DNA of 64,000 bases from an uncultured Chloroflexia bacterium (GCA_963713975.1 OY970218.1:768001-832000), one strand, 5' to 3'. Shown: positions 4,230-62,330, counted from the first letter of the stretch. The notes: generated from the sequence alone by a model not told the origin. Translations and numbers: made by a program.

Positions 4230-4272
4230 TAGTCCACTTGGCTGGGTCGCGGCGGCCCCAGCCCGGGGATGA

Positions 4273-48548: not shown

Positions 48549-48564
48549 TGGTCGGGGCGAGAGG
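48549..48564 (-). repeat. att core copy A (tRNA-Pro 3' end CCTCTCGCCCCGACCA)
   Basis: TGGTCGGGGCGAGAGG on the + strand. Confidence 0.8.
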
Positions 48565-48652
48565 AGGCAAACCTCCACGACCGACCTTAGCGTCCCGCAA
48601 GTCCGGCGGCCTTCGTTCAGCGGTGACTCACGTGGCGCCCGGCGTCGTCCGC

Positions 48653-49828
48653 TCAGCCGCGACCGACGACCATCGCCTCGTAGTCCACGAGGAGGTCGAA
48701 CAGGTCCGTGGCGGCGTACTGGCGGTCGTAGGTCCCCTGGCTGATCTGTGTGAGGACCCCGGCCTCGGCAAGAGACTTGAGCGCCGCGAGCGTCTGTTGC
48801 TGGCTGGTGCCGATGGCCGTACGCGCGGTAGGCGCCGAGAGGACCGGCAGTGCCGGCAGGAGCGCGATCAACTTCGACGCCGCCGATCCGGACCTCGGGT
48901 TCCCGGCGAGGTCCATCCAGCCCCGCTGGAGGGCCGCCACCCGGTCCGCCAGCACCACCGACGCCGATGCCGCATCCCGGGTCGCGGCGGCGAATGAGCC
49001 GATCCACTCGGCAAGCCTGCCCTCCCGGAACCCGACGAGGCCGTCCACGTACGCGCCGGGCCGCGCGGCCAGCACGATGGACACCGGTGGCACGAAGCGC
49101 ACGGTGGCACCCCGACGGCGCAGGACGACATGCACCAGACACCGTCCGACGCGACCGTTGCCGTCGAGGAAGGGGTGGATCGTCTCGAACTGGGCGTGGG
49201 CGATCGCGGCCTGGGCAACGACCGGCAGGTCGTCGCGACCGAGGAAGGCGGCCAGGTCCTCCAGCAGGCCGGAGACGAGATCCTCGGGCGGCGGGATGTA
49301 CCGGGCATCGGACGGGTTGTCCAGTCGACCGCCGATCCAGTTCTGCTCCTCTCGTACGCACCCCGGCCGCGCCCGCTCGTCGCCGGCCATCAGTGTGCGG
49401 TGGATCGCGAGCAGGTGGTCGACGGAGACCCGCTCATCGCCTGCACCGATCGCAATCGCCTCCTCCATCGCGGACACGTTCGCCGCGACGATTCGCGCGC
49501 TCCCCTTGGCCGCACGGGGATCGACCAGGGCACGGGCGAGGTTGAGGGAGCTGACGTCGTAGCCCTCGAGGCGGGACGAGGCCACCGCCTCCGATCGCAG
49601 GAGCAGCGGTCCGATCGCCTCGAGCCCGCCGACCGACGCCCGGTCGTTCAGGGCCCGGATCGCGGTCGCGGCTGCGGCCGCGAGGTCGGCCGTCTCGAAC
49701 GGGACGACCGGTGCGAGGGTGGCGACCGGGTCAGGCACGAAGGCCCGATAGCGGAAGGTGGCCCGGGCGCGCCGCCCGCCGATCGTCCCCGGATCGCCTT
49801 CCCAAACGCGCTCGACCGACCGAGGCAT
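48653..49828 (-). CDS. Fic family protein with C-terminal HTH-like region
   Basis: HPFLDGNGRVGR Fic motif; EAVASSRLEG. Confidence 0.93.
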   Translation of the reverse strand: MPRSVERVWEGDPGTIGGRRARATFRYRAFVPDPVATLAPVVPFETADLAAAAATAIRALNDRASVGGLEAIGPLLLRSEAVASSRLEGYDVSSLNLARALVDPRAAKGSARIVAANVSAMEEAIAIGAGDERVSVDHLLAIHRTLMAGDERARPGCVREEQNWIGGRLDNPSDARYIPPPEDLVSGLLEDLAAFLGRDDLPVVAQAAIAHAQFETIHPFLDGNGRVGRCLVHVVLRRRGATVRFVPPVSIVLAARPGAYVDGLVGFREGRLAEWIGSFAAATRDAASASVVLADRVAALQRGWMDLAGNPRSGSAASKLIALLPALPVLSAPTARTAIGTSQQQTLAALKSLAEAGVLTQISQGTYDRQYAATDLFDLLVDYEAMVVGRG

Positions 49829-49875
49829 GACTGTGGCACCCTTCACCTGCCGTCCAACAGTGAACGGATGGGCAC

Positions 49876-49918
49876 ACACTAGCCATCTAAACCTTCAATG
49901 TCAACGAACGAATGAAGG
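49876..49918 (-). promoter_or_regulatory. Sigma70 promoter of the Fic gene with an overlapping inverted repeat
   Basis: Minus-strand TTGACA (49899-49904), 17 nt, TAGTGT (49876-49881); CCTTCA...TGAAGG flanks the -35. Confidence 0.7.
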
Positions 49919-50008
49919 GTTGGACGGCGACCCGGCTCAGCGCCGACGGCGGGAAGGTGCGCGGAGCACGGAGCCCCGTGACGTCCAGGGGTCTCGGGGC
50001 TGATGACC

Positions 50009-50024
50009 TGGTCGGGGCGAGGGG
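50009..50024 (-). repeat. att core copy B (1 mismatch)
   Basis: TGGTCGGGGCGAGGGG, followed in frame by GRGEGARASATRQIRGCTVAMGGRRPSVDETRIA*. Confidence 0.72.
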
Positions 50025-50339
50025 GCTCGGGCCTCCGCTACCCGGCAGATCCGCGGTTGCACCGTCGCCATGGGCGGCAGGCGCCCGTCAGTAGACGAGA
50101 CGCGCATCGCATGAGGCCGCGGCCGTCACGCCCCGCCGAGCGCGCCACGGACCGGGACGTCTCTGGCCGGCTCCGACTAGCTTGAAGGGGCGAACGAGCC
50201 GTTTGCCTCTGGTCATCTTGGGCCGCCCGTGCCGAGAATCGCCCCAGCGGGAGGCTGTGACGCGCGGCTCATGCAGCGGCCGCCCGGACCGCGCCGAGCC
50301 ACTGGCGAGACCGACCCGCTCGCGCAGGAGGGCGGCGCG

Positions 50340-51020
50340 ATGGGTCTGCGCAGATCGTTCTGGCTGCCGTTCTTCGGGGTGCCGCGCGGTCCGCTCGGGT
50401 GGGTCGGCGCTCGGCTGCTGCCGAAGGTCGCCCGGCCCCTCAATGCGATGGTGGCCGGGCAGCTGGCCCTCGGGCCCGACGATTCGTTGTTGGAGGTTGG
50501 CTGCGGCTCCGCAGGGTTGCTCGTCGAGCACGCCTCGCATGTCCGCCACGTCGCTGGCCTGGACGCATCGGAGATCCAGGTGGACATGGCCAGGAAGCGG
50601 CTGGCCGACCGCATCGCGGCAGGGACGGCCGAGATCGTCCTTGGCAACGCGATGGCCCTGCCGTGGGAGGACGGCCACTTCAGCGTCGTCGCCTTGGTCA
50701 ACTGCCTGAAATTCGTCCCTGATCCCCTGAAGGCCCTGAGCGAGATGCATCGGGTCCTCCGTCCCGACGGACGGCTGGTGCTCACGATCGACAAGCAGGT
50801 CGACAAGTGGGGTCGGTCGGGCAAGATCGACGCGTTCGGCCAGTGGCAGTGGAGCGTGGATGACATGCGGCGGATGATGGAGGAGGCCGGCTTCGCCGAC
50901 GTCTCCGTCGCCGATATGCCGACCAAGCTGGGCCTTCAGTTCGTGCGTGGCGCGAAGCGGGCGGCACTGCCTGTCGCGGAGGCCGCCGAGGCGCCGGCGC
51001 TCGTGGGGGCGGCCGGATGA
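50340..51020 (+). CDS. Class I SAM-dependent methyltransferase
   Basis: AGGAGG RBS; FG.PRG.LG, LLEVGCGS, RVLRPDG. Confidence 0.9.
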   Translation: MGLRRSFWLPFFGVPRGPLGWVGARLLPKVARPLNAMVAGQLALGPDDSLLEVGCGSAGLLVEHASHVRHVAGLDASEIQVDMARKRLADRIAAGTAEIVLGNAMALPWEDGHFSVVALVNCLKFVPDPLKALSEMHRVLRPDGRLVLTIDKQVDKWGRSGKIDAFGQWQWSVDDMRRMMEEAGFADVSVADMPTKLGLQFVRGAKRAALPVAEAAEAPALVGAAG

Positions 51021-51556
51021 GCACCCCGCTGACCGGGGACCGTCGCACCGGCACGCCGCACGCGACGCCCCACTGGCTGATCCGCCTCGTTGGGGTCGTC
51101 CACCTCGCCGGCTATCGGCTCAGGGGCGGGAGGCTCGGGCTCTCGCGTCCGACTCCCGCCCGCTGGGGCAACATGTGCATCACCACGACCGGACGCAGGA
51201 CAGGCAAGAAGCGGCGCGCGATGCTCGGCTACTTCGATGACGGCCGGAACCTAGTCGCGTTGGCCGTGAACGCTTGGGCGGATGCCGAGCCCGCCTGGTG
51301 GCTCAACCTTCAGGCGCATCCCGACGCCGTCGTCGAGCTCAAGGACGGGTCCCGGGCGGTCCATGCACAAGCGGCTGAAGGCGACGAACGGACGCGCCTC
51401 TGGGCGCGCTGGCGCGAGCTGGGAGAGCGGTCCGGCGAGGCCATGATCGCGAATTGCGACGCGTACGCCGCCGGGATGAACCGCCAGCCGGCGGTCGTGG
51501 TGTTGGAGCCTGCAAGTGCACCCCGGGATAGCCCGCCGGACAACCGTCGGGGATGA
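51017..51556 (+). CDS. Deazaflavin-dependent nitroreductase family protein
   Basis: TTTGRRTGK.R, N.W...EPAWWLNLQA.P, R..AVVVLEP. Confidence 0.85.
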   Translation: MSTPLTGDRRTGTPHATPHWLIRLVGVVHLAGYRLRGGRLGLSRPTPARWGNMCITTTGRRTGKKRRAMLGYFDDGRNLVALAVNAWADAEPAWWLNLQAHPDAVVELKDGSRAVHAQAAEGDERTRLWARWRELGERSGEAMIANCDAYAAGMNRQPAVVVLEPASAPRDSPPDNRRG

Positions 51557-51586
51557 GTCGCCGACGCTCACCGAGGAGGCAGAGAG

Positions 51587-51718
51587 ATGACCGCGTCGAG
51601 GCGCCCGGGCGGCATGTACGTGCGCGAGTCCGACCTGCCATCCGAGCTCCGCCGCGAGCCGGCACCGGAGGCGGAAGCGGTGGAGCGGATGCGACGGAAG
51701 GTGGCGGCGGCCGCCTGA
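51587..51718 (+). pseudogene. 43-codon ORF, possibly an alpha/beta hydrolase with its middle deleted
   Basis: Strong GAGGAGG RBS; MYVRES resembles hydrolase N-termini and is joined to LPSELRRE. Confidence 0.4.
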
Positions 51719-51736
51719 GCGCGGGAGGCTACAACG

Positions 51737-52440
51737 ATGCGACTCACCCCATCCCTGCACCGACTTGGTGAGGAGATCGTCGGCTGCTACCTCGTGGACC
51801 CGCCTATTGCGCCGACCTGGCGACCGAGCTCGCAGCCATGGGCCGCACGATCGATGACGTCCGGGCGCTCGTGTTGACCCACGGCCACGGCGACCACACC
51901 GGGTTCGCCGAGCGACTGCGAGCCGAGCATGGCGTGCCGGTCAGCATCCACCCGCTCGATCTGGCTCAGGCCCGGGGCACGGCCGGTAACCCGAGCGCGG
52001 GCATGGGCGAGCGCAGGCTCCGTTCGCTGCTGCACTACCTCCTGTGGCTCGCGCGTCACGGCGGGATGCGCGACAGGCCGGTGAGGGAGATCGGCACGTT
52101 CGAGCCAGGCACCACGCTCGACGTGCCTGGCGCGCTGCGCGTCATCCATGTGCCGGGACACACTCCCGGCAGCGTCGCCTTCCATTCCCCGGCACACGAC
52201 GCCCTGTTCGTGGGCGATGCGCTGGTGACGGACGCTGTCATCAACAACCGGCACGGTCCGCAGATCAGTCCCTTCGCCGCTGACCCTGACCAAGCCCTAG
52301 CCTCCTTGGAGAACTTCGAGCAGCTCGAGGCGCACTGGCTCCTGCCTGGACACGGGAGTCCTTGGACCGGCGGCGTCGCTGCCGCCGTGACAGCCGCGCG
52401 CGACGTCGGAATCGGGCACTTGGCCCGACCGAGGCGCTGA
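51737..52440 (+). pseudogene. MBL-fold metallo-hydrolase, frameshifted near the 5' end
   Basis: GGAGG RBS then MRLTPSLHRLGEEIVGCYLV; out of frame with THGHGDH, PGHTPG, GD, PGHG; the IDAG motif is missing. Confidence 0.8.
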
Positions 52441-52537
52441 CGACGCGTCGGATCGTCGCTCCCTGCCCGCCCGATCCCGAAGGCATGGCCCGAACGACCG
52501 AATAGAAACCTGGGCTCGCCGCCCGCACCCTCGAGGC

Positions 52538-53310
52538 ATGACTTCGGCCGTCCGCGCCACTCGCCGCACTCGCGACGGCCGGCCAGCCGTGGTCCGGCGC
52601 CCGTACGCCCTGACCATGCTCCACTGCGCCAGCTGCGGCCGGCACCTGATTGGCGACACGGGGCGGTACCGGCACCCGGACCCCTGCGAGGCGTTCACCG
52701 CCGTCCGACGCGAGCCACAGAAGCGAAGCCGGGGACAGCGCGTGGGGATGCCGGGCCACGGCGATCGCGCCGAGGAGTACGAGGCCATCGTTCGCGAGGT
52801 CCTCGCGCAGGTCTCCCTCGGGTCCGACGGGATCGCCGCGGTCGTCGAGGCCACGCGGGCGCCGGAGCCCGACCGCCTTGCGCTGGCCAGGATCGGCCGG
52901 GAGCGCGACGCTGCCGTGGCGCGCTACCGCCGCGACCGCGACCTACACGCGCTCGAGGCGTCCATGGCGGCGCTCGACGAGCAGGAAGCCGAGGCCCGCG
53001 ACCGCCAGCCGGCGCCCGAGCTCGCGGCGGTCGAGGTCGCGGCCTACCTGCGGGACCTGCAGCGACTGTGGGACGACGCGCCGGACTCGAGGCGTGGGCT
53101 CACGGAGTCGCTGTTCGAGCGGGTGGAGGTCCTCGGACTCCGGCGGATGCACCTGGAGCCGACGCCGGCCGCGGTCGCCGCGGGCCTCGTAGAGGCGTTC
53201 TCGTGCGCATCTGCTGGTTATGGTCGGGGCGAGAGGGATGGCCCGCCACCACGACCTTTCGATCACGATGCGCCTCGCGGAGCCGCCGGTGCCCTGCGAG
53301 CTGGACAGAC
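52538..53310 (+). pseudogene. Large serine recombinase C-terminal remnant (Zn ribbon, coiled coil, att core C)
   Basis: YAL.MLHCASCG..L.G..RYRH..PC, coiled coil, RR.L.ESLFERVEV, ending GRGER; no catalytic domain. Confidence 0.8.
53221..53236 (-). repeat. att core copy C
   Basis: TGGTCGGGGCGAGAGG; the following ~70 nt closely match those after copy D. Confidence 0.85.
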
Positions 53311-53449
53311 GGCGCAGCTGGTGTGCATCCTGGCATTGCGCCTCCTGGAACCCGACGGCCTTGTCCCAGCAGATGACGAGGGCCTGTTCCGGCCCGGAGG
53401 CGTCGATGTTGCCGACAGGATCGCGGGGAACGGCGCCATCAGCCGCCGA

Positions 53450-54910
53450 TCACGCGCCAGGCGTGTGGTAGAGCTTGAACGTGCCCGTCTCGATCATCCT
53501 TCCCGACTCCTTGATCCACTCCTTCTTGGCGTAGTACTCGTCGCCGAAGACCTCCCAGTCGATGGCGACATAGCCGCCGCCACTCGCGCCGTCGGTGTCG
53601 AGCTCCGCGATGTGGGTCGCGAGGAAGGTGTTCGTCCAGGCCGGGAACGGGGGAAGGGGCAGGCGTGGGCCCGATGACCCGCAGATCTTGATCTTCGCGC
53701 TCTCCGACGTGGGGCCGGGCATGTAGTTGAGGAGGAAGTCGATCTCCCGACTGTCGAACTGGTCCGGCCTGGCGCTCAGAATCCGCAGCCTGTTGACCAC
53801 GAAGTCGCCGTCGCCCGTGATGCTCGTCGCCCCGCACGGTGCCTTGAACTTGAAGGCCGTGTTCACCAGTAGCGCCTCACCGTAGATCCGGCTCTCGTCG
53901 GGATCGAACCGGAGCATGACCTCCGACGTCACCGTGGATTCATAGCCGCCGTCGGCCACGTCCAGGATCCCAGTCGACTCCACCTTCAATTGGAAGGTCA
54001 GGCACTTGACGGTGAGGTCGCGCGCCTCCCGCAGCGGCGCTTCGTCGAGCGCCTGCCCGAACATGCCAAACACCGCGAACTGGCGTTCCATGCTCCGCCA
54101 GACGAGGGCCATCCGGTGGATGACGTGCTCCTCGACGCACAGCTCGAACTCCTCGATGATGCAGACCCTGGCGGCCTTCTCCACGAGCCCCGGGTACCGC
54201 TCTAGTCCGCTCGCCGTCGAGGACAGGCCCAGCAGCTGCCGATGGCGCTCCAGGGTGATGACGGACTCGATTGCCAGCCTGCCCTTGGCACAGCTCTCGC
54301 CGGCGACAGCGACGCGGGGCACCACCACCTGCCGCTCGTACTCGAGCATGGTCGCCTCGTACGCGGCTGACAGGAAGGCGCCCTGGAACTCGCCGCCTTC
54401 CTGTCTGATCCGGATGACCTCGGCGTTGAGCGCGGCCGTCAGGCGCCGCTCGGCGTCGCCGCCGATGCGCCTGCGGTCTGGCTCGATGTCGGCCAGCAGG
54501 CCCCGCGTGACACCGTTGCCGCTGAAGTGGGGGACCGAGATCTGGATGTCCGTCGACCCGATGACCGGCTGGGCCAGGATCACGTCCCTGCCGTCCGCTT
54601 CGTAGCCGAACGGGAGCTGCTCGCCCGGCGGGATCGGCTGGGCCGGCGCGATCGTGAGGACGGCGGGGTTGTACAGGAAGAGGCCGTCCGGGCTGAGCTG
54701 GACCCCATAGGTCTGCTGGCCACCGAAGGGGAGGCCTCCGACGCTTGCGACCGGGGTCAGCCCGATCGACGTCTCGGTCAGGAGGGCGTTCGCGGGGATG
54801 TCGAGCGTGTAGACGGTGCCGTCGGCGCCGGTTGCGCTGACGCTGCCGCCCTCGATTGGAATGACGGCTTCGACGGCGCCCGCCGTTTCAAGCGTGAGGG
54901 CGAGGTCCAC
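53450..54910 (-). CDS. Large exported-type hypothetical protein, probably 5'-truncated
   Basis: GG.VSA..DGT..L.IP..AL..I.LTP (ZU5-like) N-terminus and paired Cys; no RBS or signal peptide, abuts the ATPase fragment. Confidence 0.6.
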   Translation of the reverse strand: MDLALTLETAGAVEAVIPIEGGSVSATGADGTVYTLDIPANALLTETSIGLTPVASVGGLPFGGQQTYGVQLSPDGLFLYNPAVLTIAPAQPIPPGEQLPFGYEADGRDVILAQPVIGSTDIQISVPHFSGNGVTRGLLADIEPDRRRIGGDAERRLTAALNAEVIRIRQEGGEFQGAFLSAAYEATMLEYERQVVVPRVAVAGESCAKGRLAIESVITLERHRQLLGLSSTASGLERYPGLVEKAARVCIIEEFELCVEEHVIHRMALVWRSMERQFAVFGMFGQALDEAPLREARDLTVKCLTFQLKVESTGILDVADGGYESTVTSEVMLRFDPDESRIYGEALLVNTAFKFKAPCGATSITGDGDFVVNRLRILSARPDQFDSREIDFLLNYMPGPTSESAKIKICGSSGPRLPLPPFPAWTNTFLATHIAELDTDGASGGGYVAIDWEVFGDEYYAKKEWIKESGRMIETGTFKLYHTPGA

Positions 54911-54929
54911 CGGGGCCGCCGCCGAGTCG

Positions 54930-55700: not shown

Positions 55701-56083
55701 CCCAGCCATAACGTCTTGCCGCTGACTCCGGACGCCGCTCCTGATCGTAGCCCGAGCGCTATCGCGGCACAGACGAGACCCGATCCATCGGTGCCCACGA
55801 CCGCACGAGCCGCAGCAGGGACCGGGCCTGCTTCATAGAGAGCCGACGGTCGCCGTAGGGTCTCCCTTGTGAGGACCGGGCGTCGGCGAACGAATGGGCA
55901 AGGGCTAGGAATGCGAGGTGGACGCCGGGCTCCACGTCTTCCGCAAGCTCGTCGAGCACGACCTGCAGGCACCGGGATCCGCCCCAATCCCGCGGTGTCC
56001 CCCCGCTCCGATTCCGCGCGCCCGGCGCGTCATCGGGCGGGCACGCCTTGTGACAGTCCTCACGATGCCCGACACTCCCGGCC

Positions 56084-58861
56084 ATGGAGGTCATCGGGCG
56101 TGACGCCGAGCTCCGCGGGGTGGACACGTTCCTCGACGCGGTGACCGGGTCGCTCGCGGTCCTGGCGATCCGGGGCGAAGCGGGCATCGGCAAGACCACG
56201 CTCTTCCGGGAGGCGGTGCGCCGGGCTGCCGAGCGCGGCTTCACCCTCCTGGTCGCCCAGGCCGCGGCCGCCGAGGCTCACCTGACGCTGACGACCCTCG
56301 CCGACATCGTGGAACCCGTGGTCGACGCGGCCGGTGACGCGCTCCCGCCGGTCCAGCGGGCGGCGCTCGACGCCGCGCTGCTCCGGACTGGACCATCCGA
56401 GCGACCACTCGAGCCGCGGCTCCTCGGCGCCGCCACCCGGTGTCTGCTCAACCACCTGGCGTCGACGAGCCCGGTGCTCGTCGCGATCGACGATGCGCAG
56501 TGGGCCGACACGGCCTCGGCGTCGACCCTCGCGTTCGCGCTCCGCCGCCTCCCATCCGCCCCGGTCGGCCTCCTCCTGGCGCTGCGGACCGGCGAGCCCG
56601 CTCCGCCCGCGCTCGCGTCGATCGCCGACTCCGAACGCACGACATCGATTGACATCGGCCCGCTCTCCGTGGCGGCGCTCCACCACCTCCTCAAGGCGCG
56701 GACCGGGCGTTCGCCCTCCCGCTCGGTACTCATCCGGATCAGGGAGGCGTCCGGGGGCAGCCCACTGTTCGCGCTGGAGATCCAGCGCGCCCTCGACGAG
56801 GGTGGCATGCCCCCGGCCGGTGAGCCACTGCCCGTCCCGCCGGACGTCCGCGCGCTCGTCCGGGACCGGATCCGCCGTCTGCCAGACGCGACCGCAGACC
56901 TGCTGCTGGTCGCGGCAACGGCCGGTCGCGCCCCGGTGGAGCTCATGGCTCGGGCGCTCGGGCGGCCCGTGGACGGGGACCTCGCGATCGCCGCGCACGA
57001 GGACATCGCCCGCGCCGAGCGTGGCGCCATCATGTTCGGACATCCCCTGTTCGCGGCAGCGGTCATGGCCGAGGCGACGCCCGACCATCGTCGCGCAGCG
57101 CACCGGCGCCTCGCCGATGTCGTCGCGGGAGTGGAGGAGCGCGCCCGACACCGGGCGCTGGGATCCGCCGGGCCCTCCGCCGACCACGCCGCGGAGCTCG
57201 ACAGGGTCGCGGCCCAGGCGAACGGCCGCGGGGCGCCGGCCTCCGCCGTCGAGCTCCTCGACCTCGCGATCGTCGTCACGCCCGAGGGCGACGGGGCCGG
57301 CCGCGACGCCCGCCGCCTGCTCGTCGGCGAGTACGCCCATCGTGCGGGGGACGCCGGCCGCGCCCAGGTGGCGCTGGAGCGCGTCATCACGGGGGCGGAT
57401 GATCCGAGGATGCGCGCGCGGGCCGGCCTCGCGCTCGCCGCGATCCGGTACGAGGCGGACGCGGCGAGCTCCGCGTTCGAACTTGCGAACGCGGCGTTGG
57501 ACGACGCCGAAGGCGACCCGCAGCTCATGGCGCGGGCGCACGCCACCCTGGCCGCTGTGGACTGGGAGGACTTCAGTCGGCCCGCCGCCCACGTCGCGGA
57601 GGCGCTCCGGCTCCTGGGGACGGTCGACGATCCGGATCCGGTCGTCCTAGGGCTCGCCCTCATGGGGCGCTGCGCCACGGATGTGGCCGCCGGCCGCACG
57701 CTGGATCCCGTGATCGTCGAGCGCGGGCTCGAACTCGAGCGCCGGGCCGCGCCGTCGAGCGTCGCCGACCGGTTCAGCGCCTCGCTCGGGGCCTGGCTCA
57801 AGACGCTCGACGACTTCGCCGGTGCCCGGCGCTGGCTGGAGGGGACCTACCTGGCGGCGATGGAGGAGGGCGATGAGGGGTCCCTTCCGTACGCGCTCAG
57901 CCACCTGCCGGAGCTTGAGCTCTGGACCGGCGACTGGCCGGCCGCCGAGTCGTACGCCCGCCGCCACCTCGAGATCGCGACCGACCGTGAGCTCGAGTCG
58001 CAGCGCCGGCAGGCCCTGTACAACCTCGCCCTGGTACACGTCCACCAGGGACGCGACGCCGAGGGCCGGGCCGAGATCGACGAGGCGCTCGCGGCGGCCG
58101 CCACGGACGGCGACAGCTGGACGGTCACGAGCGTCACGCCGCTCCTGGGCCTTCTCGAGCTCCTCGCGGGGAACGCGGCCGCGGCCGCCGGGCACCTCCT
58201 CCGGGCCACGGAGCAGCGCGAGGCGATGGGCCACGTTGCGCCGCGACGGCACGACCAGGACCTCGTCGAGAGTCTGGTCGCCGTGGGGGATCTCGACCGG
58301 GCGCGCGAGGCTGTGGATCAGATGGAAGCCCGCGCCGGGCGGTACCACCGGCACTCGGCACTCGCCAACGCCGCGCGCTCGCGGGCGCTCACCGTCGCGG
58401 CGTCCGGCGATCTCGACGGCGCGATCGCCGCGCTGGACCAGGCGCTGGGAGAGCATGACGCCGCGCTGATCGAGGTCGACCGGGCACGAACGCTGCTCAC
58501 GATCGGCCAGGTACGGCGGCGGCGGCGTGAGCGGCGCGCGGCCGGAGCCGCGTTCGAGGCGGCCCTGGTCACCTTCGAGCGGCTGGGCGCCGCGACCTGG
58601 GCCGAGCGGACCCGCGCCGAGCTCGCCCGGACGGGCATCCGGCGTTCGGCCGGGCCCGGCCTCACGGAGACGGAGTGGCGGGTCGCCGAGCTGGCCGCGT
58701 CGGGGATGACCAACCGCGCGGTGGCTGCGGCGCTGTTCCTCAGCCCCAAGACCGTGGAAGCGAACCTGTCGCGCGCCTACGCCAAGCTCGGGGTCGCGTC
58801 GCGAGCCGAGCTCGGGGCCCTGCTGGGCCGAGGCCGAGGGTCCGAGACCCTGCAACCGTAG
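56084..58861 (+). CDS. LuxR-family large STAND regulator (AAA-TPR-HTH)
   Basis: IGRDAEL, GEAGIGKT, IDDAQWAD, GGSPLFA; LTETEWRVA..GMTN..LFLSPKTVEANL. Confidence 0.94.
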   Translation: MEVIGRDAELRGVDTFLDAVTGSLAVLAIRGEAGIGKTTLFREAVRRAAERGFTLLVAQAAAAEAHLTLTTLADIVEPVVDAAGDALPPVQRAALDAALLRTGPSERPLEPRLLGAATRCLLNHLASTSPVLVAIDDAQWADTASASTLAFALRRLPSAPVGLLLALRTGEPAPPALASIADSERTTSIDIGPLSVAALHHLLKARTGRSPSRSVLIRIREASGGSPLFALEIQRALDEGGMPPAGEPLPVPPDVRALVRDRIRRLPDATADLLLVAATAGRAPVELMARALGRPVDGDLAIAAHEDIARAERGAIMFGHPLFAAAVMAEATPDHRRAAHRRLADVVAGVEERARHRALGSAGPSADHAAELDRVAAQANGRGAPASAVELLDLAIVVTPEGDGAGRDARRLLVGEYAHRAGDAGRAQVALERVITGADDPRMRARAGLALAAIRYEADAASSAFELANAALDDAEGDPQLMARAHATLAAVDWEDFSRPAAHVAEALRLLGTVDDPDPVVLGLALMGRCATDVAAGRTLDPVIVERGLELERRAAPSSVADRFSASLGAWLKTLDDFAGARRWLEGTYLAAMEEGDEGSLPYALSHLPELELWTGDWPAAESYARRHLEIATDRELESQRRQALYNLALVHVHQGRDAEGRAEIDEALAAAATDGDSWTVTSVTPLLGLLELLAGNAAAAAGHLLRATEQREAMGHVAPRRHDQDLVESLVAVGDLDRAREAVDQMEARAGRYHRHSALANAARSRALTVAASGDLDGAIAALDQALGEHDAALIEVDRARTLLTIGQVRRRRRERRAAGAAFEAALVTFERLGAATWAERTRAELARTGIRRSAGPGLTETEWRVAELAASGMTNRAVAAALFLSPKTVEANLSRAYAKLGVASRAELGALLGRGRGSETLQP

Positions 58862-58955
58862 GGAATCCCCCGATGCAGCGTCGGTGCCCGGAACCCAAAG
58901 TCGGGGTTGGGCAAGCCCCGACCGGCGCGGGCTCCCGGAGAGCCGAGGTCAGCCG

Positions 58956-59546
58956 ATGCGTCCCGCGTCCCCCTTCCAAGCGCTTGCCGGGCTCGCCTGT
59001 CTCCTCCTCGTGGCTGCCTGCTCCGCGTCACCCGCGTCACGCGCGACAACCGCCTCGACCGCTCCGTCGGCATCCGAGGCGGCAGCGGCCACATCGGGAG
59101 CGGGCGATCCCTCGCCCTCCGGGTCACAGGAAGGCACCGGGCGACCCGCCGGCGAGACCGACGACTACACCCTGTTCACGACCGATCGCCTCGCCGCGCT
59201 CGTCGGCCAGCCGGTCCACGTCGGCGACACGAGCCTGCTGTTCGGGATGGGCTGCCGATGGGACACGGCCGACGGCCGGGGCGGCGTCGTCATCCAGCAC
59301 CAGCCGGTCCACCTCGGGTGCGGGGATATCGCCGCGCAGGACGGGCAGCACCCCGTGACCGGGGTCGGCGACGAGGCGACCATCGGCCCGGCTGCGTTCT
59401 ACGGGACCAATGGCGACGGGCCGTTCGACGCTACGATCGCCGCCGCGATCGTGGGCGAGGGCTTCGTCTCGGTCGTGATGGCACCGGCGCCGTCCGACGA
59501 CACCGTCGTGGGGCTACTCCGCGACCTCGCCGGCGCGGTGCGCTGA
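58956..59546 (+). CDS. Lipoprotein (DUF3558-like)
   Basis: LVAAC lipobox, S/A-rich linker, C.W, V.GVGDEA. Confidence 0.72.
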   Translation: MRPASPFQALAGLACLLLVAACSASPASRATTASTAPSASEAAAATSGAGDPSPSGSQEGTGRPAGETDDYTLFTTDRLAALVGQPVHVGDTSLLFGMGCRWDTADGRGGVVIQHQPVHLGCGDIAAQDGQHPVTGVGDEATIGPAAFYGTNGDGPFDATIAAAIVGEGFVSVVMAPAPSDDTVVGLLRDLAGAVR

Positions 59547-59547
59547 G

Positions 59548-61101
59548 ATGGCAGGATCCGTGCGCCGCGGCGCCAGGCCGATCAGCGCGCTCCTCGCGAT
59601 CGCGCTGCTGGCCGGCCTGGTGGCGGGATGCGCCGCGTCCCCGTCACCGGCCGGATCGCCCGCCGGGTCCGCCACGAGCCGCCCGTCGAGCCCAGCGGCG
59701 ACCGAGAGCCTGAGCCTCGAGGACGCCGTTCTGGCCTACGGCCAGGGCCCCACGCGCGATCCCTCGATCACGTACCAGCCCGATGTCGTGTTCGTCGAGG
59801 GCGGTCCATCGAGCATCCGGTGGGCTAGCGCCGACGGGCTGACCTGGGCCATCGACCGCAACGCGCCCGGCGCGGCGGACCTCCGGACCGGGTCCGTCAT
59901 GTTCGCCACCACGGTTGCCCTCGGTCGCGTGACGGCGATGGAGGACCAGGGCGACGACCGGATCGTGCACCTCGCGCCAGTTGACCTGACGGACCTCGTG
60001 AGAGACGGAACGATCGAGTTCGACCAGGACCTGGACCTCGCCGACGCCACCTATCGCCAGCTTCCCGACGACATGCCCGCCGTCCTGACCGACGCCGACT
60101 CGCCGCCCTCACCCAGCCCCGGCGCGGATCTCGCACCGACGGACGGCACCGGGGTGGTCACGATGCCGCCGATCCGGCTGGCTGCGGCCCGCACCGGGCT
60201 CCCGGCGATCGAGCCTGCCGCCGTCGGCAAGCTGACGGTCCCAAGCAAGGTCTGCCCCAAGCTCGGGATCAGCGACTGGAGCGTGGAGTACTGCATCCAG
60301 GGCCCGGGCCTGTCCCTGGCGATCGACCGCAAGCTTGGCGGCCACCTCAAGGTGGGGGTCGGGCTCAAGCTGCTGACCAGCAAGCTGCGTTTCCACGCCG
60401 GCACGGTCATCAAGGGCGGCCAGATGATCGACTCCGGCGGCCTGCTCGACGGCCTGGATGGCTTCGAGCTGGACCTCGCCGGGGGCGTCGAGGACGGCGC
60501 CCAGGACAACGTCAAGATCAAGATCGAGGTGCCGGTCGAGATCGAGACCGGCTCCATCGTGGTCGGCGGGATCCCGCTCAAGATGTACATCGAAGCCAAG
60601 TTCACGATCGAGACCGCGTTCTCGGGGAAGAACTCGACGCTCAGCGGGACGGGCGAATACCACTTGAGCGGCCCGATCGGGATCCAGGGCGGGAAGCCCG
60701 TCGTGCCCCAGCTCACGGTCGTCCGGAGCCTCCTCGACAGCCTCAAGGGCATCACCGTGGGGCCCAGCGGCGTGGTCATCGCGGTGAAGTGGAAATTCCA
60801 GGGCGGCGTGGGGCTCTACGGCTTCGTCGCGGGTCCGTACCTGACGGTCACCTTCGCGATGGGCATCGGCCGCGGGTCCGTGATCGGGGCGCCGCTCGCC
60901 GTGTGCCACGGGGCCACGCTGGGGATCTGGGTGGGCGCCGGGGGCGGGTTCAACCTCAACGCGTCGAAGCTGGGCTGGCTGCTGGGCAAGGACAGCCTGG
61001 TCGCGAAGTACCTCAAGGCCAAGATCGATATCGACCTTCTCCAGTTCGAGGTCGTCAACAAGAAGGCGGTGACCCCCGATGTCCCCCTCTGTCGTGGCTG
61101 A
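59548..61101 (+). CDS. Large beta-rich lipoprotein
   Basis: VAGC lipobox; Gly/Val-rich beta-strand C-terminal half. Confidence 0.78.
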   Translation: MAGSVRRGARPISALLAIALLAGLVAGCAASPSPAGSPAGSATSRPSSPAATESLSLEDAVLAYGQGPTRDPSITYQPDVVFVEGGPSSIRWASADGLTWAIDRNAPGAADLRTGSVMFATTVALGRVTAMEDQGDDRIVHLAPVDLTDLVRDGTIEFDQDLDLADATYRQLPDDMPAVLTDADSPPSPSPGADLAPTDGTGVVTMPPIRLAAARTGLPAIEPAAVGKLTVPSKVCPKLGISDWSVEYCIQGPGLSLAIDRKLGGHLKVGVGLKLLTSKLRFHAGTVIKGGQMIDSGGLLDGLDGFELDLAGGVEDGAQDNVKIKIEVPVEIETGSIVVGGIPLKMYIEAKFTIETAFSGKNSTLSGTGEYHLSGPIGIQGGKPVVPQLTVVRSLLDSLKGITVGPSGVVIAVKWKFQGGVGLYGFVAGPYLTVTFAMGIGRGSVIGAPLAVCHGATLGIWVGAGGGFNLNASKLGWLLGKDSLVAKYLKAKIDIDLLQFEVVNKKAVTPDVPLCRG

Positions 61102-61135
61102 GCAGCGTGGCCCGTGGCGGTCTCGCGGATGGCTC

Positions 61136-61681
61136 GTGGCCCGCCGGGCCGCCGGCGCGGTGGCGCTGGCGCTCCTGGTCGCATGTTGCTCGGGCGCGCC
61201 CGTCCCAGCGGCCACCGCGACACCGCTCGCGATCACGGCCGAGCCGGCAACGCCCACGCCCAGCCAGGTCCCGGCCTCCGACACCCCGCCCCCGCCGACG
61301 CCCGCCGCGATCGACCCCTGCGGGCTGATCACGCACGACGAGGCCAACGCCCTCGCGGGGGTCACGGTGCAGGATCCCGAGCCGGCTGGCGAGCCGCCCG
61401 TCCGCTGCGTCTGGGCGACCCCGGTGACGGGCGCGATCGGCCAGGTGGAGATCGATGTCGGGGACGGGGCGAAGAAGGCCTACGACATCGACGCCACCGT
61501 CCTGGGCCACACGTTCGCTCCGGTCGCGGATGTTGGCGACGAAGCCTACGCGGAGGACGGCGCGATCTTCTTTCGCACGAGCGACACCTGGGTCGCGATC
61601 CGCGTCATCCGTCTCGATGACCCCGCCAGGAGCTCGGGACCTCTCGAGCAGCTGGCCCGCGTGGTCGTCGGGCGGATCTGA
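61136..61681 (+). CDS. Lipoprotein (DUF3558-like)
   Basis: LVAC lipobox, DPCGLIT..EA, C.W, V.DVGDEA; start uncertain. Confidence 0.72.
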   Translation: MARRAAGAVALALLVACCSGAPVPAATATPLAITAEPATPTPSQVPASDTPPPPTPAAIDPCGLITHDEANALAGVTVQDPEPAGEPPVRCVWATPVTGAIGQVEIDVGDGAKKAYDIDATVLGHTFAPVADVGDEAYAEDGAIFFRTSDTWVAIRVIRLDDPARSSGPLEQLARVVVGRI

Positions 61682-61683
61682 CG

Positions 61684-62031
61684 ATGTCCGGGTCGGTGCG
61701 CACGTTCCTCGCCGAGTGCTACATCCCGGGGATCGAGGAGTCCTCCGTGGCCGCCGCGGCGACGCGGGCACGCGCGGCCGTCCGCGCCCTTGTCGCCGCG
61801 GGCGAGCGCATCGAGTACCTGGGTGCCGTCCTTGTCGCGGGCGATGAGGTCGTGTTCCACACGTTCGGGGCGCAGGATCCTGTGCTCGTCGAACGGGCGA
61901 GCCGGAACGCGGGCCTGGCGTTCGAGCGCATCGTCGAGTCCGTGGCCGTGGACGGGGCCGACCCGGGCCTCGCCGGGCAGCGGCTAGCTACGGCGCCGGG
62001 GTTGCGTCGACGGGCGAGCCGCAGTCGGTGA
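61684..62031 (+). CDS. Small DUF4242/SCO4226-like protein
   Basis: FLAECY.PG, YLG..V..DE.VF..F.A..V.RA..AGL.FERI.E. Confidence 0.65.
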   Translation: MSGSVRTFLAECYIPGIEESSVAAAATRARAAVRALVAAGERIEYLGAVLVAGDEVVFHTFGAQDPVLVERASRNAGLAFERIVESVAVDGADPGLAGQRLATAPGLRRRASRSR

Positions 62032-62079
62032 ACCACAGGACCGCGCCGCCGCCAGCGACCACAAGGAGCACCCGGCGTA

Positions 62080-62330
62080 CCGGGTGATGCTGGCAGGATC
62101 GCGGAGGCCGTGTTCGAGCGGATCGATGTCCTGGGGGTGACCGACTTCACGTTCACGCTGACCGCTCACGCCAAGGCGCGAGGCTGGGACGCGGCCTTCG
62201 GGGCCGGCGCCGTCCGCGTGAAAGAAGGTCGATCTGGTCGGGGCGAGAGGGGTAGCCCCGCCACCACCGACCTTCCGATCACGTTGCGCCTCGCCGAGCC
62301 GCCGGAGCCCTTCGACTGGGCCGATGCACG
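62080..62330 (+). pseudogene. Second serine recombinase C-terminal remnant with att core D (62235-62250)
   Basis: IAEAVFERIDVLG is homologous to LTESLFERVEVLG of the 52538 remnant; continues GRGERGSPATTDLPITLRLAEPP. Confidence 0.75.

What the first reader, a model, noticed from the sequence alone, without database searches (positions are those of the whole stretch)
48549..62330. Integron-like tandem islet array built on a tRNA-Pro 3'-end att core embedded in serine recombinase genes
Seen: TGGTCGGGGCGAGAGG recurs in the same orientation at 48549, 50009 (1 mismatch), 53221 and 62235, and I did not find it in the left 48 kb. Its reverse complement CCTCT-CGCCCCG-A-CCA has the form of the T-stem 3' strand, acceptor strand, A73 and CCA of tRNA-Pro (C1:G72, A73). 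Copies C and D directly follow two different large-serine-recombinase C-terminal remnants. All four copies read GRGE(R/G) into related tails (RQTSTTDL, ARASATRQ, DG/PAT/DLSITMRLAEPP, GSPATTDLPITLRLAEPP). Inference: attP lies inside the 3' end of the recombinase gene, and repeated integration at one tRNA gave body-core-tail junctions. These separate units of 1.46 kb (Fic), 3.2 kb, 9.0 kb and more than 1.7 kb. Most units lack an intact recombinase, so they may have been captured or moved in trans like cassettes. tRNA targeting is better known for tyrosine integrases.
Basis: partly seen in the sequence, partly recalled or inferred. Interest (0 to 1): 0.88.

Follow-up and report, generated by a model that had tools for sequence, protein, structure and literature searches.

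The report
Decayed serine-recombinase island array at tRNA-Pro
The repeats mark the joints of four small gene islands that serine-recombinase mobile elements inserted one after another into the end of a proline tRNA gene and that have since lost their recombinases; related uncultured soil bacteria carry the same kind of array in working form.

Summary
TGGTCGGGGCGAGAGG stands at 48549, 50009 (1 mismatch), 53221 and 62235, all on the + strand.

Left of copies C and D lie C-terminal remnants of two large serine recombinases (LSRs). They are 78% and 85% identical to full-length LSRs of same-genus genomes. Copies B and the tRNA copy carry shorter traces.

In relatives, intact LSR genes read through this same 16-mer into tRNA-Pro(CGG) or into the next unit. 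They form tandem arrays of up to 7 to 10 cores. The joints have two-fold symmetry centred on core positions 15|16, which is the likely crossover.

The window therefore holds a fossil array. No matching LSR is left in this genome. It is not an integron.

The closest precedents are the Dehalococcoides ssrA islands (LSR DsiB, tandem, with recombinase-less units; PMC3146451) and SCC/ECC elements. Verdict: real, well explained, and a new member of a known kind in an uncultured Chloroflexota lineage.

The parts
48549..48564 (+). Core A: the left end of the array (host arm - core - element arm, attL-type).
   Evidence: Exact 16-mer. The left flank shows no LSR-like reading in either frame. The right arm AGGCAAACCTCCACGACCGACCTT is of the P' type with a CGACCTT motif. 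Upstream histidine-kinase/response-regulator synteny is kept in same-genus G058.
48653..49879 (-). Unit 1 cargo: a Fic/DOC-domain protein (408 aa).
   Evidence: Pfam PF02661, 67.4 bits. NCBIfam Fic adenylyltransferase model at 52.9 bits, far under its cut-off of 550.
50009..50024 (+). Core B (1 mismatch): the joint between units 1 and 2.
   Evidence: Its left flank ...ggggctgatgacc resembles the ...cctgatgaggtcgaaa end of the MVGARG-type LSRs. This similarity is weak.
50229..52440 (+). Unit 2 cargo: SAM methyltransferase (50229-51020), F420H2-dependent quinone reductase family (51017-51556), metallo-beta-lactamase-fold protein (51838-52440).
   Evidence: Pfam PF08241 74.9 bits, PF04075 66.6 bits, PF00753 80.5 bits.
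52505..53236 (+). LSR remnant C: only the part after the Recombinase domain (CxxC zinc-ribbon-like stretch, coiled-coil region, ERVEVLG...GYGRGER end). The catalytic and Recombinase domains are gone.
   Evidence: tblastn E 7e-81 and 79% identity to aa 329-539 of the 540-aa G098 LSR. 78% identity over 231 aa. That homologue has PF00239 at 41 bits and PF07508 at 26.5 bits. Colinear with the genome's own LSR SR1, E 8e-5. The remnant itself has 0 Pfam families at E up to 1.
53221..53236 (+). Core C: the joint between units 2 and 3.
   Evidence: Exact 16-mer. Metagenome contigs at 90% or more likeness stop at 53236. One (run X4) goes on for 255 nt with a different right arm.
53450..62031 (.). Unit 3 cargo: unknown 486-aa ORF (53450-54910, -), LuxR-type AAA_16/TPR/GerE regulator (56084-58861, +), two DUF3558 proteins (58884-59546, 61079-61681), unknown 517-aa ORF (59548-61101), SCO4226-like protein (61684-62031).
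   Evidence: Pfam. No Pfam or NCBIfam family for the 486-aa and 517-aa ORFs. ORFs were chosen by third-position GC.
62083..62250 (+). LSR remnant D: the last ~55 aa of a second LSR type (...AVFERIDVLGVTDFTFTLTAHAKARGWDAAFGAGAVRVKEGRSGRGER).
   Evidence: 85% identity (58 of 68), E 2e-38, to the C-terminal end of the intact LSR frame in same-genus G058, locus L060. tblastn E 1e-7 to a G134 LSR.
62235..62250 (+). Core D: the joint between units 3 and 4. With its arms it forms a complete attP-like site with two-fold symmetry.
   Evidence: Exact 16-mer. 17 of 26 symmetric positions about core 15|16, with GCTGGAAG at positions 19-26 on both arms and CGGGGC at 6-11.
62607..64000 (-). Unit 4 cargo: a second LuxR-type AAA_16/TPR/GerE regulator (991 aa). 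It runs on to window-equivalent 65582. Beyond it lie an LSR end trace (about 66106-66205) and the intact tRNA-Pro(CGG) at 66206-66282 (-), all outside the window (locus L009).
   Evidence: Pfam PF13191 98.7 bits and PF00196 63.6 bits. tRNA by ARAGORN. Trace ...ARSVTIHSTSGADAHGW...RMVGARGFEPP compared with LSR ends ...ARKVKLHPSASAKAQGW...VMVGARGFEPP.

Best explanation
The window holds the left 15.5 kb of a 17.7-kb fossil array of four integrative elements (1.46, 3.2, 9.0 and 4.0 kb). They inserted one after another into the 3' end of tRNA-Pro(CGG), each through its own large serine recombinase.

In the working form, seen in relatives, each element carries its LSR gene at the end nearest the tRNA. 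The gene reads through the attachment core. The circular element's attP is a roughly 50-bp site with two-fold symmetry centred on core positions 15|16.

I infer the following. Crossover at that GG puts the element's own copy of the last 14-16 nt of the tRNA (T-stem 3' strand, acceptor 3' strand, ACCA) onto the gene. The tRNA therefore stays intact, and the displaced original end is left at the far side as a direct repeat. Because nearly all of the left half of the target site is this 16-nt core, which every element re-supplies, the tRNA is again a target after each insertion. Elements therefore pile up, with the newest next to the tRNA.

Insertion or excision also changes the recombinase's C-terminal tail, for example ...GRGERI* at the tRNA against a tail of 30 or more aa at an element-element joint.

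In this genome every recombinase has since been deleted from its 5' side. Remnants of about 700, 170, about 100 and about 20 nt abut the cores, and no cognate LSR is left. The units are now fixed cargo: Fic, a methyltransferase, an F420 reductase, two LuxR-type regulators and others.

Shown: the repeats, the tRNA, the remnants, the intact arrays in relatives and the site symmetry. Inferred: the crossover position, regeneration of the target, and the order of insertion.
For: (1) There are four + strand copies in the window (0 of 100 shuffles reach 4). A fifth is the 3' end of the intact tRNA-Pro(CGG) at c[834206..834282].

(2) Remnant C is 78-79% identical to the C-terminal 230 aa of a 540-aa G098 frame with Resolvase (41 bits) and Recombinase (26.5 bits) domains. 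Remnant D is 85% identical to the end of the G058 LSR. There are traces at B and at the tRNA copy. The left flank of A has none, as expected for the host arm.

(3) Remnant C finds relatives in 143 of 401 genomes of the order sample, G000 included, and in 142 of 358 of its own family. Of the 29 best loci, 27 carry the exact 16-mer at the LSR 3' end, and 12 of those run into tRNA-Pro(CGG). Of 60 of the 80 loci from named records that I scanned, 19 have tRNA-Pro(CGG) antisense at the LSR end.

(4) Relatives carry tandem arrays at the same tRNA:
- G085: 7 cores over 81 kb with 4 LSRs.
- G107: 5 cores, each behind an LSR.
- G369: 4 cores with 3 LSRs.
- G134: 4 cores plus 1 inverted, with 3 LSRs.
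- G187: 3 cores with 3 LSRs.
- G114: 4 cores.
- G095: 10 cores over 34 kb.

(5) LSR frames cross the core in two frames, GRGER and VGARG, and end 19-139 nt after the core start in most cases.

(6) Among 91 distinct non-tRNA joints, the best symmetry centre is core 15|16 in 40 and 16|17 in 8. The mean is 10.6 of 26 matches there against 4.4-8.8 at other centres. Identity with the tRNA drops from 100% at position 16 to 59% at +17 and 16% at +18.

(7) The genome has only three Resolvase/Recombinase-domain genes, all elsewhere. Two of them end inside antisense tRNA-Arg genes. The three tyrosine recombinases are all over 1.4 Mb away.

(8) A metagenome contig keeps unit 2 up to 53236 and then continues with another right arm.
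Against: - No recombination was observed. No public run holds half or more of the stretch, and only assembled contigs could be laid, so excised circles or empty sites could not be seen.
- Remnant C has no Pfam hit of its own. Its assignment rests on homologues.
- The traces at B and at the tRNA copy are weak. The E-values are carried by the tRNA antisense part.
- Studied serine integrases do not recombine attP with a hybrid attR (recalled). Repeated insertion therefore needs my untested assumption that P-core-B' still works as attB.
- Three or four copies of the core lie away from tRNA-Pro, inside tRNA-Arg arrays and in inverted orientation. Simple insertion at tRNA-Pro does not explain them.
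- 51 of 91 joints do not have their best symmetry centre at 15|16. The joints are related sequences, not independent samples.
- The outer motif sits 6 nt closer to the centre in the tRNA arm than in P'. The corresponding shift on the left arm came out as 9, so the attP/attB half-site picture is only partly consistent.
Confidence: 0.85

Rival explanations
1. Cassette platform. Units without a recombinase are not wrecks. They are mobilisable cassettes that keep complete P-core-P' sites and are excised, captured and reshuffled in trans by LSRs of other units or incoming elements. This would resemble an integron in logic, and cis-mobilisable elements or pseudo-SCC in mechanism.
For: - Same-genus G095 has 10 cores in 34 kb with cargo-only units of 0.5-8 kb and no LSR gene. 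These include a 1.6-kb unit with a single MFS transporter gene.
- Five of its left arms share only about 11-16 nt, (G)G(A/T)GCGTAAGAC, next to the core. The sequence further out differs. That is what selection on a half-site would leave.
- The right arms in G095 also share TTGnCCCCGCGGAACC.
- The 27-mer arm plus core occurs in 9 of 201 family genomes.
- Unit 2 is joined to a different neighbour in a metagenome contig.
- The same idea was raised for 15 module-less Dehalococcoides ssrA islands (PMC3146451).
Against: - In the window, all four arms that should hold a recombinase end hold one at different stages of 5' deletion. This points to decay.
- The GCGTAAGAC arm is simply the 3' end of another LSR subfamily (...GEFGVEVRKTGRGER, a 507-aa frame in G321).
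- Surviving cores are seen only because deletions spared them, which is an ascertainment effect.
- G000 has no cognate LSR to act in trans.
- Internal joints are attP-like on both sides, a pairing that studied serine integrases do not recombine (recalled).
- No circles or population variants were seen.
Confidence: 0.12
2. Classical tRNA islands made by tyrosine integrases. On this view the serine-recombinase fragments are unrelated passengers.
For: Most known islands at tRNA 3' ends use tyrosine integrases. Examples are the actinomycete elements in tRNA genes (abstract of PMC2440964 seen in the listing) and 910 of 937 tycheposon-type elements.
Against: - PF00589 has only 3 matches in the genome, at 2.27, 2.87 and 2.93 Mb, and none near 0.82-0.83 Mb.
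- In relatives the gene abutting the core is an LSR in 27 of 29 loci.
- The LSR frame runs through the core.
Confidence: 0.02
3. A dispersed tRNA-derived repeat (pseudo-tRNA, SINE/MITE-like), or a segmental duplication or assembly artefact, with no site-specific recombination involved.
For: - Some right arms keep a T-arm-like hairpin (AGAGG-7 nt-CCTCC in copy A).
- Copies also occur elsewhere in the genome.
Against: - The shared block is exactly the last 16 nt of the tRNA. Identity ends at +17/+18.
- ARAGORN calls no tRNA or pseudo-tRNA in the window.
- The flanks are unrelated cargo, not duplicated segments (mean column identity 62% over short arms only).
- The same layout recurs in many independently assembled genomes.
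Confidence: 0.01

Closest known systems
[quoted passage not shown] 2011, PMC3146451; passages read, not the whole text or its supplements).
   Same: - Same phylum (Chloroflexota).
- Multiple tandem islands bounded by a direct repeat of the 3' end of a tRNA-like gene (20 bp of ssrA).
- A ~540-residue serine recombinase at the island edge.
- Inferred insertion point at the T-loop.
- 15 islands without an integration module, discussed as possible cis-mobilisable elements or as fixed remnants.
   Different: - The target here is a true tRNA (Pro-CGG; relatives of the LSR also sit at tRNA-Arg-CCG), not tmRNA.
- The repeat is 16 nt.
- The predicted crossover is at the T-stem/T-loop border.
- The LSR frame itself runs through the core.
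- No small second serine recombinase (DsiA-like) was seen. In G000 all 3 Resolvase-domain matches are the long genes.
- Homology to DsiB was not tested, because no DsiB sequence was available from a tool. The CcrB model scores only 19 bits against a cut-off of 900.
SCCmec / Enterococcus cassette chromosome (CcrAB large serine recombinases; PMC6222049, passages read).
   Same: - LSR-driven islands with highly variable cargo, inserted at the 3' end of a conserved single-copy gene.
- Direct-repeat att sites.
- Multiple attR sites and remnants in many strains (16 of 32 ECCs).
- Recombinase-less remnants.
   Different: - The target there is the protein gene rlmH, and two recombinases (CcrA and CcrB) act together.
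- Here the target is a tRNA, there is a single LSR per unit, and its reading frame overlaps the site.
- The sequence relation is negligible.
Tycheposons of Prochlorococcus (Hackl et al., bioRxiv 10.1101/2020.12.28.424599; passages read).
   Same: - Cargo elements inserted at a few tRNA genes.
- Neighbouring elements separated only by a partial tRNA.
- Degenerate integrases and extra partial tRNAs as traces of older insertions.
- 27 of 937 elements carry a large serine recombinase.
   Different: - 910 of 937 use tyrosine recombinases.
- The passages I saw do not say which tRNAs the LSR-bearing ones use, or whether the LSR gene overlaps the site. The supplements are closed and may bear on this.
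- Many tycheposons carry replication genes. None was seen in the window's units.
Integrons (recalled knowledge; no call).
   Same: - A one-directional row of short gene units separated by a recurring recombination site.
- Most units have no recombinase of their own.
   Different: - There is no IntI tyrosine recombinase, attI or Pc promoter.
- The sites are a tRNA 3' end with double-strand two-fold symmetry, not folded single-strand attC.
- Genes lie on both strands.
- Every unit once had its own recombinase.
Tandem accretion and cis-mobilisable elements at ICESt1/ICESt3 (Pavlovic et al. 2004; seen only as reference 54 and in the discussion passage of PMC3146451).
   Same: - Site-specific accretion gives tandem elements.
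- Units flanked by att sites that encode no recombinase.
   Different: - Those use a tyrosine integrase and the 3' end of a protein gene. Mobilisation there was shown experimentally (recalled).
- Here nothing has been tested.

Membership tests
Large serine recombinase (serine integrase) | N-terminal Resolvase catalytic domain with the nucleophilic serine. | tested here: met
   Met for the family, not for the window's copies. G098 homologue: PF00239 at 41 bits (cut-off 23.3). R-E-S-T-x-G-Q is invariant in 6 of 6 aligned LSRs. Reading S as the nucleophile is by analogy (recalled). In the window this domain is deleted: no PF00239 match at E up to 1 in 816-834 kb.
Large serine recombinase (serine integrase) | Recombinase domain (PF07508) followed by a zinc ribbon and coiled coil. 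| tested here: inconclusive
   PF07508 scores 26.5 bits (cut-off 21.1) in the G098 homologue. Remnant C keeps CxxC...H..C and a Glu/Arg/Ala-rich stretch and aligns colinearly with SR1 aa 334-479. No Zn_ribbon_recom hit was reported, and no solved structure matched at E up to 1e-3. No fold was predicted.
Large serine recombinase (serine integrase) | Short (~40-50 bp) att sites with imperfect two-fold symmetry around a central dinucleotide. | tested here: met
   The best symmetry centre is at core 15|16 in 40 of 91 distinct joints (16|17 in 8). Copy D and the G058 site have 17 of 26 symmetric positions. This is in silico only.
Large serine recombinase (serine integrase) | Catalyses attP x attB recombination. 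| not testable with these tools
   No read-level evidence was obtainable.
tRNA-anchored tandem genomic islands (accretion) | An intact tRNA at one end and same-orientation direct repeats of its 3' end between units. | tested here: met
   five copies over 17.7 kb, all on the + strand, the last one being the tRNA.
tRNA-anchored tandem genomic islands (accretion) | Each unit carries, or carried, its own integrase next to an att site. | tested here: met
   Remnants lie at C and D, with weaker traces at B and at the tRNA copy. Intact LSRs sit at the same place in relatives.
tRNA-anchored tandem genomic islands (accretion) | Content varies between related genomes, or an empty site exists. | tested here: inconclusive
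   Arrays differ in number and size of units among species-level relatives. One metagenome contig joins unit 2 to another arm. No same-species genome was available. No truly empty site was found: all 5 same-family genomes checked had 2 or more cores.
Integron | An IntI-type tyrosine recombinase with attI next to the array. | tested here: not met
   PF00589 has 3 matches in the genome, all over 1.4 Mb away.
Integron | attC sites, and promoterless cassettes in one orientation behind Pc. | tested here: not met
   The repeats are the tRNA 3' end. Genes lie on both strands: Fic and the 486-aa and 991-aa ORFs on -, the others on +. I did not fold the sites as single strands.
SCC / ssrA-GI type (CcrB/DsiB clade) | Sequence membership in the CcrB/DsiB clade and a paired small serine recombinase. 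| tested here: not met
   The NCBIfam CcrB model scores 19 bits against a cut-off of 900. No small Resolvase-only gene is present in G000 (3 matches, all long genes). DsiB itself was not compared.

The most novel reading that the evidence does not exclude
In this uncultured Chloroflexota lineage (relatives' record titles read Candidatus Limnocylindrales), serine recombinases rather than tyrosine integrases own the tRNA 3' ends.

At least five LSR subfamilies, 30-60% identical to one another, have converged on one 16-nt core of tRNA-Pro(CGG). Sister LSRs use tRNA-Arg. The target is rebuilt at each insertion, so arrays grow without limit: 10 units in G095, and core repeats spread over 131 kb at tRNA-Arg(CCG) in this genome.

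Units that have lost their recombinase but keep a full ~50-bp P-core-P' joint would still be moved in trans. That would make a serine-recombinase counterpart of an integron-like gene-capture platform. The tail swap of the recombinase on insertion might act as a switch.
Probability: 0.18. Interest if true: 0.7.

Novelty: new member of a known kind. Interest (0 to 1): 0.42.

Why it matters
The repeats are explained, which removes a seeming oddity.

Beyond this window, the relatives reveal a large and apparently undescribed LSR clade:
- 0 matches in 50,697 phage records and 2 weak matches in 72,556 plasmids.
- No solved relative.
- 0 papers in the library hold both 'Limnocylindr' and 'recombinase'.

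The natural target of the clade is a defined 16-nt core in a tRNA gene, and its attP can be read straight off the genomes. Such enzyme-site pairs are the raw material for integrase tools.

The arrays also show how genome plasticity is organised in a widespread, uncultured soil, peat and sediment lineage, in parallel with the Dehalococcoides ssrA islands.

The array in this window is itself a fossil of limited interest.

Tried and rejected
- Pfam on the two remnants gave nothing for 52538-53677 or 52538-53245. I turned to homologues instead.
- Whole-genome tblastn with 25 stop-to-stop LSR frames timed out twice. I repeated it with 11 of the 25 queries on six chosen regions only. LSR traces elsewhere in the genome may therefore have been missed.
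- Half-site shift idea. The CGACCT/GCTGGA motif lies about 6 nt nearer the centre in the tRNA arm than in P' arms, as in the published attP/attB model (recalled). The left arm gave 9, not 6, so I keep it only as a hint.
- The recombinase tail swap as a consistent switch: rejected as a rule. The GRGER type is short at the tRNA and long at joints, while the VGARG type is the reverse.
- Left boundary by synteny. The bestrophin-like gene is not syntenic (8 of 40 same-genus genomes, on other contigs). The histidine-kinase/response-regulator pair is syntenic in G058 and lies about 20 kb from the array in G114.
- Empty site: not found. All 5 genomes checked that lacked a remnant-C match still had cores.
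- Sequencing runs. No run holds half or more of the words; shares were at most 0.12 and all were contigs. The joints listed have sides of 20-32 nt at 90% likeness and are likely other organisms, so I did not use them. The very high depth at 50207-50807 comes from a short conserved methyltransferase segment.
- Literature. 'serine recombinase' + 'integrates into tRNA' gave 0 papers, and 'Limnocylindr' + 'recombinase' gave 0. The searches gave no paper describing LSRs whose gene overlaps a tRNA att core. The phiRSM papers listed were not opened; that a small serine recombinase there targets a tRNA-Ser gene is recalled only.
- Not used: the search of protein representatives, structure prediction, fold search, complex prediction, the search for homologous proteins and the atlas.
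- Supplements were not consulted (closed). The tycheposon tables and the ssrA-GI additional files may bear on the comparison.

Full report
**1. The observation**

A search with up to two mismatches on both strands finds TGGTCGGGGCGAGAGG exactly four times in the 64-kb window. The copies are at 48549, 50009 (one mismatch), 53221 and 62235, all on the + strand, and none lies left of 48549. Shuffles give 0.29 expected, and 0 of 100 reach four. ARAGORN finds no tRNA in the window.

The window is G000:C1:768001-832000 of a single 3.62-Mb contig. Genome-wide, with up to one mismatch, there are nine copies and none of the backwards control. The fifth + strand copy, at 834206 (window-equivalent 66206), is the first 16 nt of a 77-nt tRNA-Pro(CGG) on the minus strand, c[834206..834282].

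From the sequence printed, the tRNA reads acceptor CGGGGCG ... T arm GGAGG-TTCAAAT-CCTCT, then CGCCCCG-A-CCA.

**2. What lies between the copies**

I chose ORFs by third-position GC and scanned them against Pfam. The order is:

- a bestrophin-like gene (47570-48538, -)
- core A
- Fic/DOC protein (48653-49879, -)
- core B
- methyltransferase, F420H2-dependent reductase family, metallo-beta-lactamase fold (50229-52440, +), then an ORF from 52538 that runs through core C
- an unknown 486-aa ORF (-), a 925-aa AAA_16/TPR/GerE regulator, DUF3558, an unknown 517-aa ORF, DUF3558, an SCO4226-like protein, then a short ORF piece running through core D
- a 991-aa AAA_16/TPR/GerE regulator (-, ends at 65582)
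- about 620 bp
- the tRNA
- an HTH gene and glutamine synthetase type III

**3. The remnants are serine recombinase ends**

The whole genome has three matches each to Resolvase (PF00239) and Recombinase (PF07508). They are the same three genes, SR1-SR3, and all lie elsewhere. It also has three tyrosine recombinases, all over 1.4 Mb away.

The 52538 ORF has no Pfam hit. It does align colinearly with SR1 aa 334-479 (E 8e-5) and with the zinc-ribbon entry of SR2 and SR3.

Used as a query on 401 genomes of the order, its first 236 aa find relatives in 143 genomes. That is 142 of 358 in its own family and 0 of 42 in the other. Most hits lie in open frames of 450-650 aa.

The best same-genus frame (G098, 540 aa, 78% identical over the shared 231 aa) carries Resolvase (41 bits) and Recombinase (26.5 bits) above the Pfam cut-offs. 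The motif R-E-S-T-x-G-Q is invariant in six aligned members. So 52505-53236 is the C-terminal 40% of a large serine recombinase whose catalytic half is deleted.

The piece before core D (about 62083-62250) is 85% identical (58 of 68) to the end of an intact LSR in same-genus G058, including the tail beyond the core.

The flank of the tRNA copy reads ...ARSVTIHSTSGADAHGW...RMVGARGFEPP, against ...ARKVKLHPSASAKAQGW...VMVGARGFEPP in intact LSRs. The flank of B keeps ...ctgatga.., like the ...cctgatgaggtcgaaa ends. Both are weak traces. The flank of A shows nothing of the kind, as expected for the original host side.

**4. The working form in relatives**

Of the 29 best loci, 27 contain the exact 16-mer at the 3' end of the LSR match. 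In 12 of these the 16-mer is the end of a tRNA-Pro(CGG) antisense to the LSR. In 15 it is followed by other sequence.

A scan of named records with an alignment of six LSRs gave 224 relatives among 326 candidate stretches. Nearly all titles read Chloroflexota or Candidatus Limnocylindrales. I ran 60 of the 80 loci kept through ARAGORN, with this result:

| tRNA at the LSR end | Loci (of 60) |
|---|---|
| tRNA-Pro(CGG), antisense at the LSR end | 19 |
| tRNA-Pro(GGG) | 1 |
| tRNA-Arg(CCG), with ~40%-identical LSRs | 2 |
| tRNA-Pro on the other strand | 1 |
| none | 37 |

Longer stretches from eleven contigs show tandem arrays:

| Genome | Cores | LSRs | Notes |
|---|---|---|---|
| G085 | 7 | 4 | spans 81 kb, ends at the tRNA |
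| G107 | 5 | 5 | each core behind an LSR |
| G134 | 4 + 1 inverted | 3 | |
| G369 | 4 | 3 | |
| G187 | 3 | 3 | |
| G114 | 4 | not counted | |
| G393 | 3 | not counted | |

Within one array the LSRs may be near-identical (93-94% in G085, 92% for two in G107) or only 30-60% alike. Several subfamilies therefore use one core.

The LSR frames cross the core in two frames. One type reads ...GRGER and stops at the tRNA's T-loop (GRGERI*). The other reads ...MVGARG and runs on through the antisense tRNA (FEPPTSSSRTMRATKLRHAPTE...). At element-element joints the tails differ.

The genome's own SR1 and SR3 do the same at tRNA-Arg(CCG) and tRNA-Arg(CCT). SR1 is 39% identical to a tRNA-Pro LSR.

**5. How it probably works**

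I collected 132 distinct core contexts from all loci. Of these, 91 are followed by non-tRNA sequence and 41 by the tRNA.

For the 91, the best centre of two-fold symmetry is between core positions 15 and 16 in 40 cases and between 16 and 17 in 8. The mean is 10.6 of 26 symmetric positions at 15|16, against 4.4-8.8 at other centres. For the tRNA contexts the best centre is the T-loop, as expected of a hairpin.

Copy D and the G058 site are symmetric at 17 of 26 positions, with CGGGGC at positions 6-11 and GCTGGAAG at 19-26 on both arms.

Identity between the right arms and the tRNA falls from 100% at position 16 to 59% at +17 and 16% at +18. A few inner positions stay tRNA-like (+19 T 91%, +24 C 84%, +25 C 97%).

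From this I infer an LSR-type attP of about 50 bp with the crossover at the GG of core positions 15-16. The element's left arm then supplies the last 14-16 nt of the tRNA, which explains why exactly this block must be identical. The left half of the target is almost wholly this block, so every insertion rebuilds a usable target and elements accrete.

This last step is an inference. It runs against what is known of studied serine integrases, which do not use hybrid sites (recalled). It needs a test.

**6. Decay or cassettes?**

Same-genus G095 has ten cores (eight exact) in 34 kb ending at the tRNA, and no LSR gene. Its units hold only cargo: two MFS transporters, PadR, PAS and HD-GerE proteins. 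One unit is 1.6 kb with a single gene.

Five of its left arms share (G)G(A/T)GCGTAAGAC next to the core. This arm plus core occurs in 9 of 201 family genomes. It is the 3' end of a further LSR subfamily (...GEFGVEVRKTGRGER, a 507-aa frame in G321).

The sharp loss of similarity beyond about 16 nt in several copies could mean that half-sites are kept by selection, which would favour trans-mobilisable cassettes. It could equally reflect subfamily divergence, together with the fact that only units whose cores survived can be recognised.

In the window the graded remnants (about 700, 170, about 100 and about 20 nt) fit decay, and no cognate LSR remains. I put the cassette reading at about 0.12-0.18.

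**7. Variation**

No run holds half or more of the stretch. Contigs of four metagenome runs at 90% or more likeness cover unit 2 and stop at 53236, the last base of core C. One contig continues for 255 nt with a different right arm. This is weak support for joints being exchange points. No circles or deletions could be assessed from contigs.

**8. Comparison with what is known**

The closest described system is in the same phylum. In Dehalococcoides, multiple tandem islands downstream of ssrA are bounded by a 20-bp repeat of its 3' end. They carry a 540-residue serine recombinase (DsiB, a CcrB homologue) at the edge and an inferred insertion point in the T-loop. Fifteen of the islands lack the integration module and were discussed as cis-mobilisable or fixed (PMC3146451, passages).

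SCCmec and ECC are the LSR analogue at rlmH, with multiple attR sites and remnants (PMC6222049, passages).

Tycheposons pile up at tRNAs with partial tRNAs and degenerate integrases between them. 27 of 937 have an LSR (bioRxiv 10.1101/2020.12.28.424599, passages).

Large surveys report that tyrosine integrases prefer RNA targets (PMC13626063, passages). In Mycobacterium abscessus, 16 of 23 tyrosine-integrase attB sites overlap tRNA or tmRNA genes, while the passages name no tRNA site for the six serine systems (PMC10654092, passages).

The present LSR clade is distant from known ones:
- CcrB model at 19 bits against a cut-off of 900.
- No solved relative at E up to 1e-3.
- No match in 50,697 phage records, and two weak partial matches in 72,556 plasmids.
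- No paper in the library holds both 'Limnocylindr' and 'recombinase'.

It is not an integron. It has no IntI and no attC, and its genes lie on both strands.

**9. Verdict**

The 'integron-like' label and the predicted intact recombinase next to the tRNA are not.

The window holds a fossil member of a known kind of system: serine-recombinase islands accreted at the 3' end of a tRNA-like gene. The interesting part lies in the relatives, which hold a large, apparently undescribed LSR clade with readable att sites on tRNA-Pro(CGG) and tRNA-Arg.

Confidence in the main explanation is 0.85. Interest is 0.42.

Noticed in passing
G000:C1:1173586-1304954 (outside the window; L005 covers 1299077-1302092): The 3' 16-mer of tRNA-Arg(CCG) recurs in the same orientation at 1173586, 1196778, 1198546 and 1206339, upstream of the tRNA at 1304879. 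That is a 131-kb span. SR1-like C-terminal remnants lie just before two of these copies. The intact LSR SR1 ends 65 nt inside the antisense tRNA. It looks like a much larger array of the same kind.
   Followed up: partly
G000:C1:1668029-1757006 and 2958611-2967434 (outside the window): tRNA-Arg(TCG) has five same-orientation copies of its 3' 16-mer spread over 89 kb. tRNA-Arg(CCT) has one copy 8.7 kb away, with LSR SR3 ending inside the tRNA. tRNA-Gln(CTG) has a copy 5.5 kb away. SR2 (1746623-1748146) sits inside the Arg(TCG) span but abuts no core.
   Followed up: no
L005 (core at 1501-1516, -), L006, L007; G000 1300577, 1301658, 1731268, 1806165: tRNA-Pro cores with LSR-type arms lie away from tRNA-Pro. 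Two are inside the tRNA-Arg(CCG) array and one is inside the tRNA-Arg(TCG) array, in inverted orientation. One is an orphan at 1806165 with a GCGTGAGAC arm. They could be attP-bearing fragments carried as passengers or results of rearrangement. This is unexplained.
   Followed up: partly
L154-L156 (G095:C1:3954467-3988761): A same-genus genome has ten tRNA-Pro cores in 34 kb with cargo-only units and no recombinase gene. One unit is a single MFS transporter gene of 1.6 kb.
   Followed up: partly
window 56084-58861 (+) and 62607-64000 (-, runs to 65582): Two large paralogous-looking AAA_16/TPR/GerE (LuxR-type STAND) regulators sit in neighbouring units on opposite strands. There are two DUF3558 genes in unit 3.
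   Followed up: no
window 53450-54910 (-) and 59548-61101 (+): Two long ORFs with strong third-position GC (0.91, 0.93) have no Pfam or NCBIfam family.
   Followed up: no
G000:C1:349217-349305 and 2322604-2322684 (outside the window): ARAGORN calls a second tRNA-Pro(CGG) of unusual length (89 nt), and a tRNA with a four-base anticodon (gatg). A tRNA-SeC is also present.
   Followed up: no
L139, L140, L077: LSRs about 40% identical to the tRNA-Pro clade abut tRNA-Arg(CCG); one is in a record titled Dormiibacterota. One closer LSR abuts tRNA-Pro(GGG). Targets therefore switch within the clade. A few hits lie in MAGs titled as other phyla, which may reflect binning errors or transfer.
   Followed up: no
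window 50277-50319: Hundreds of metagenome contigs match only this ~42-nt piece of the methyltransferase gene, giving summed depths of 570-5661. It is a conserved motif, not a feature of the array.
   Followed up: no
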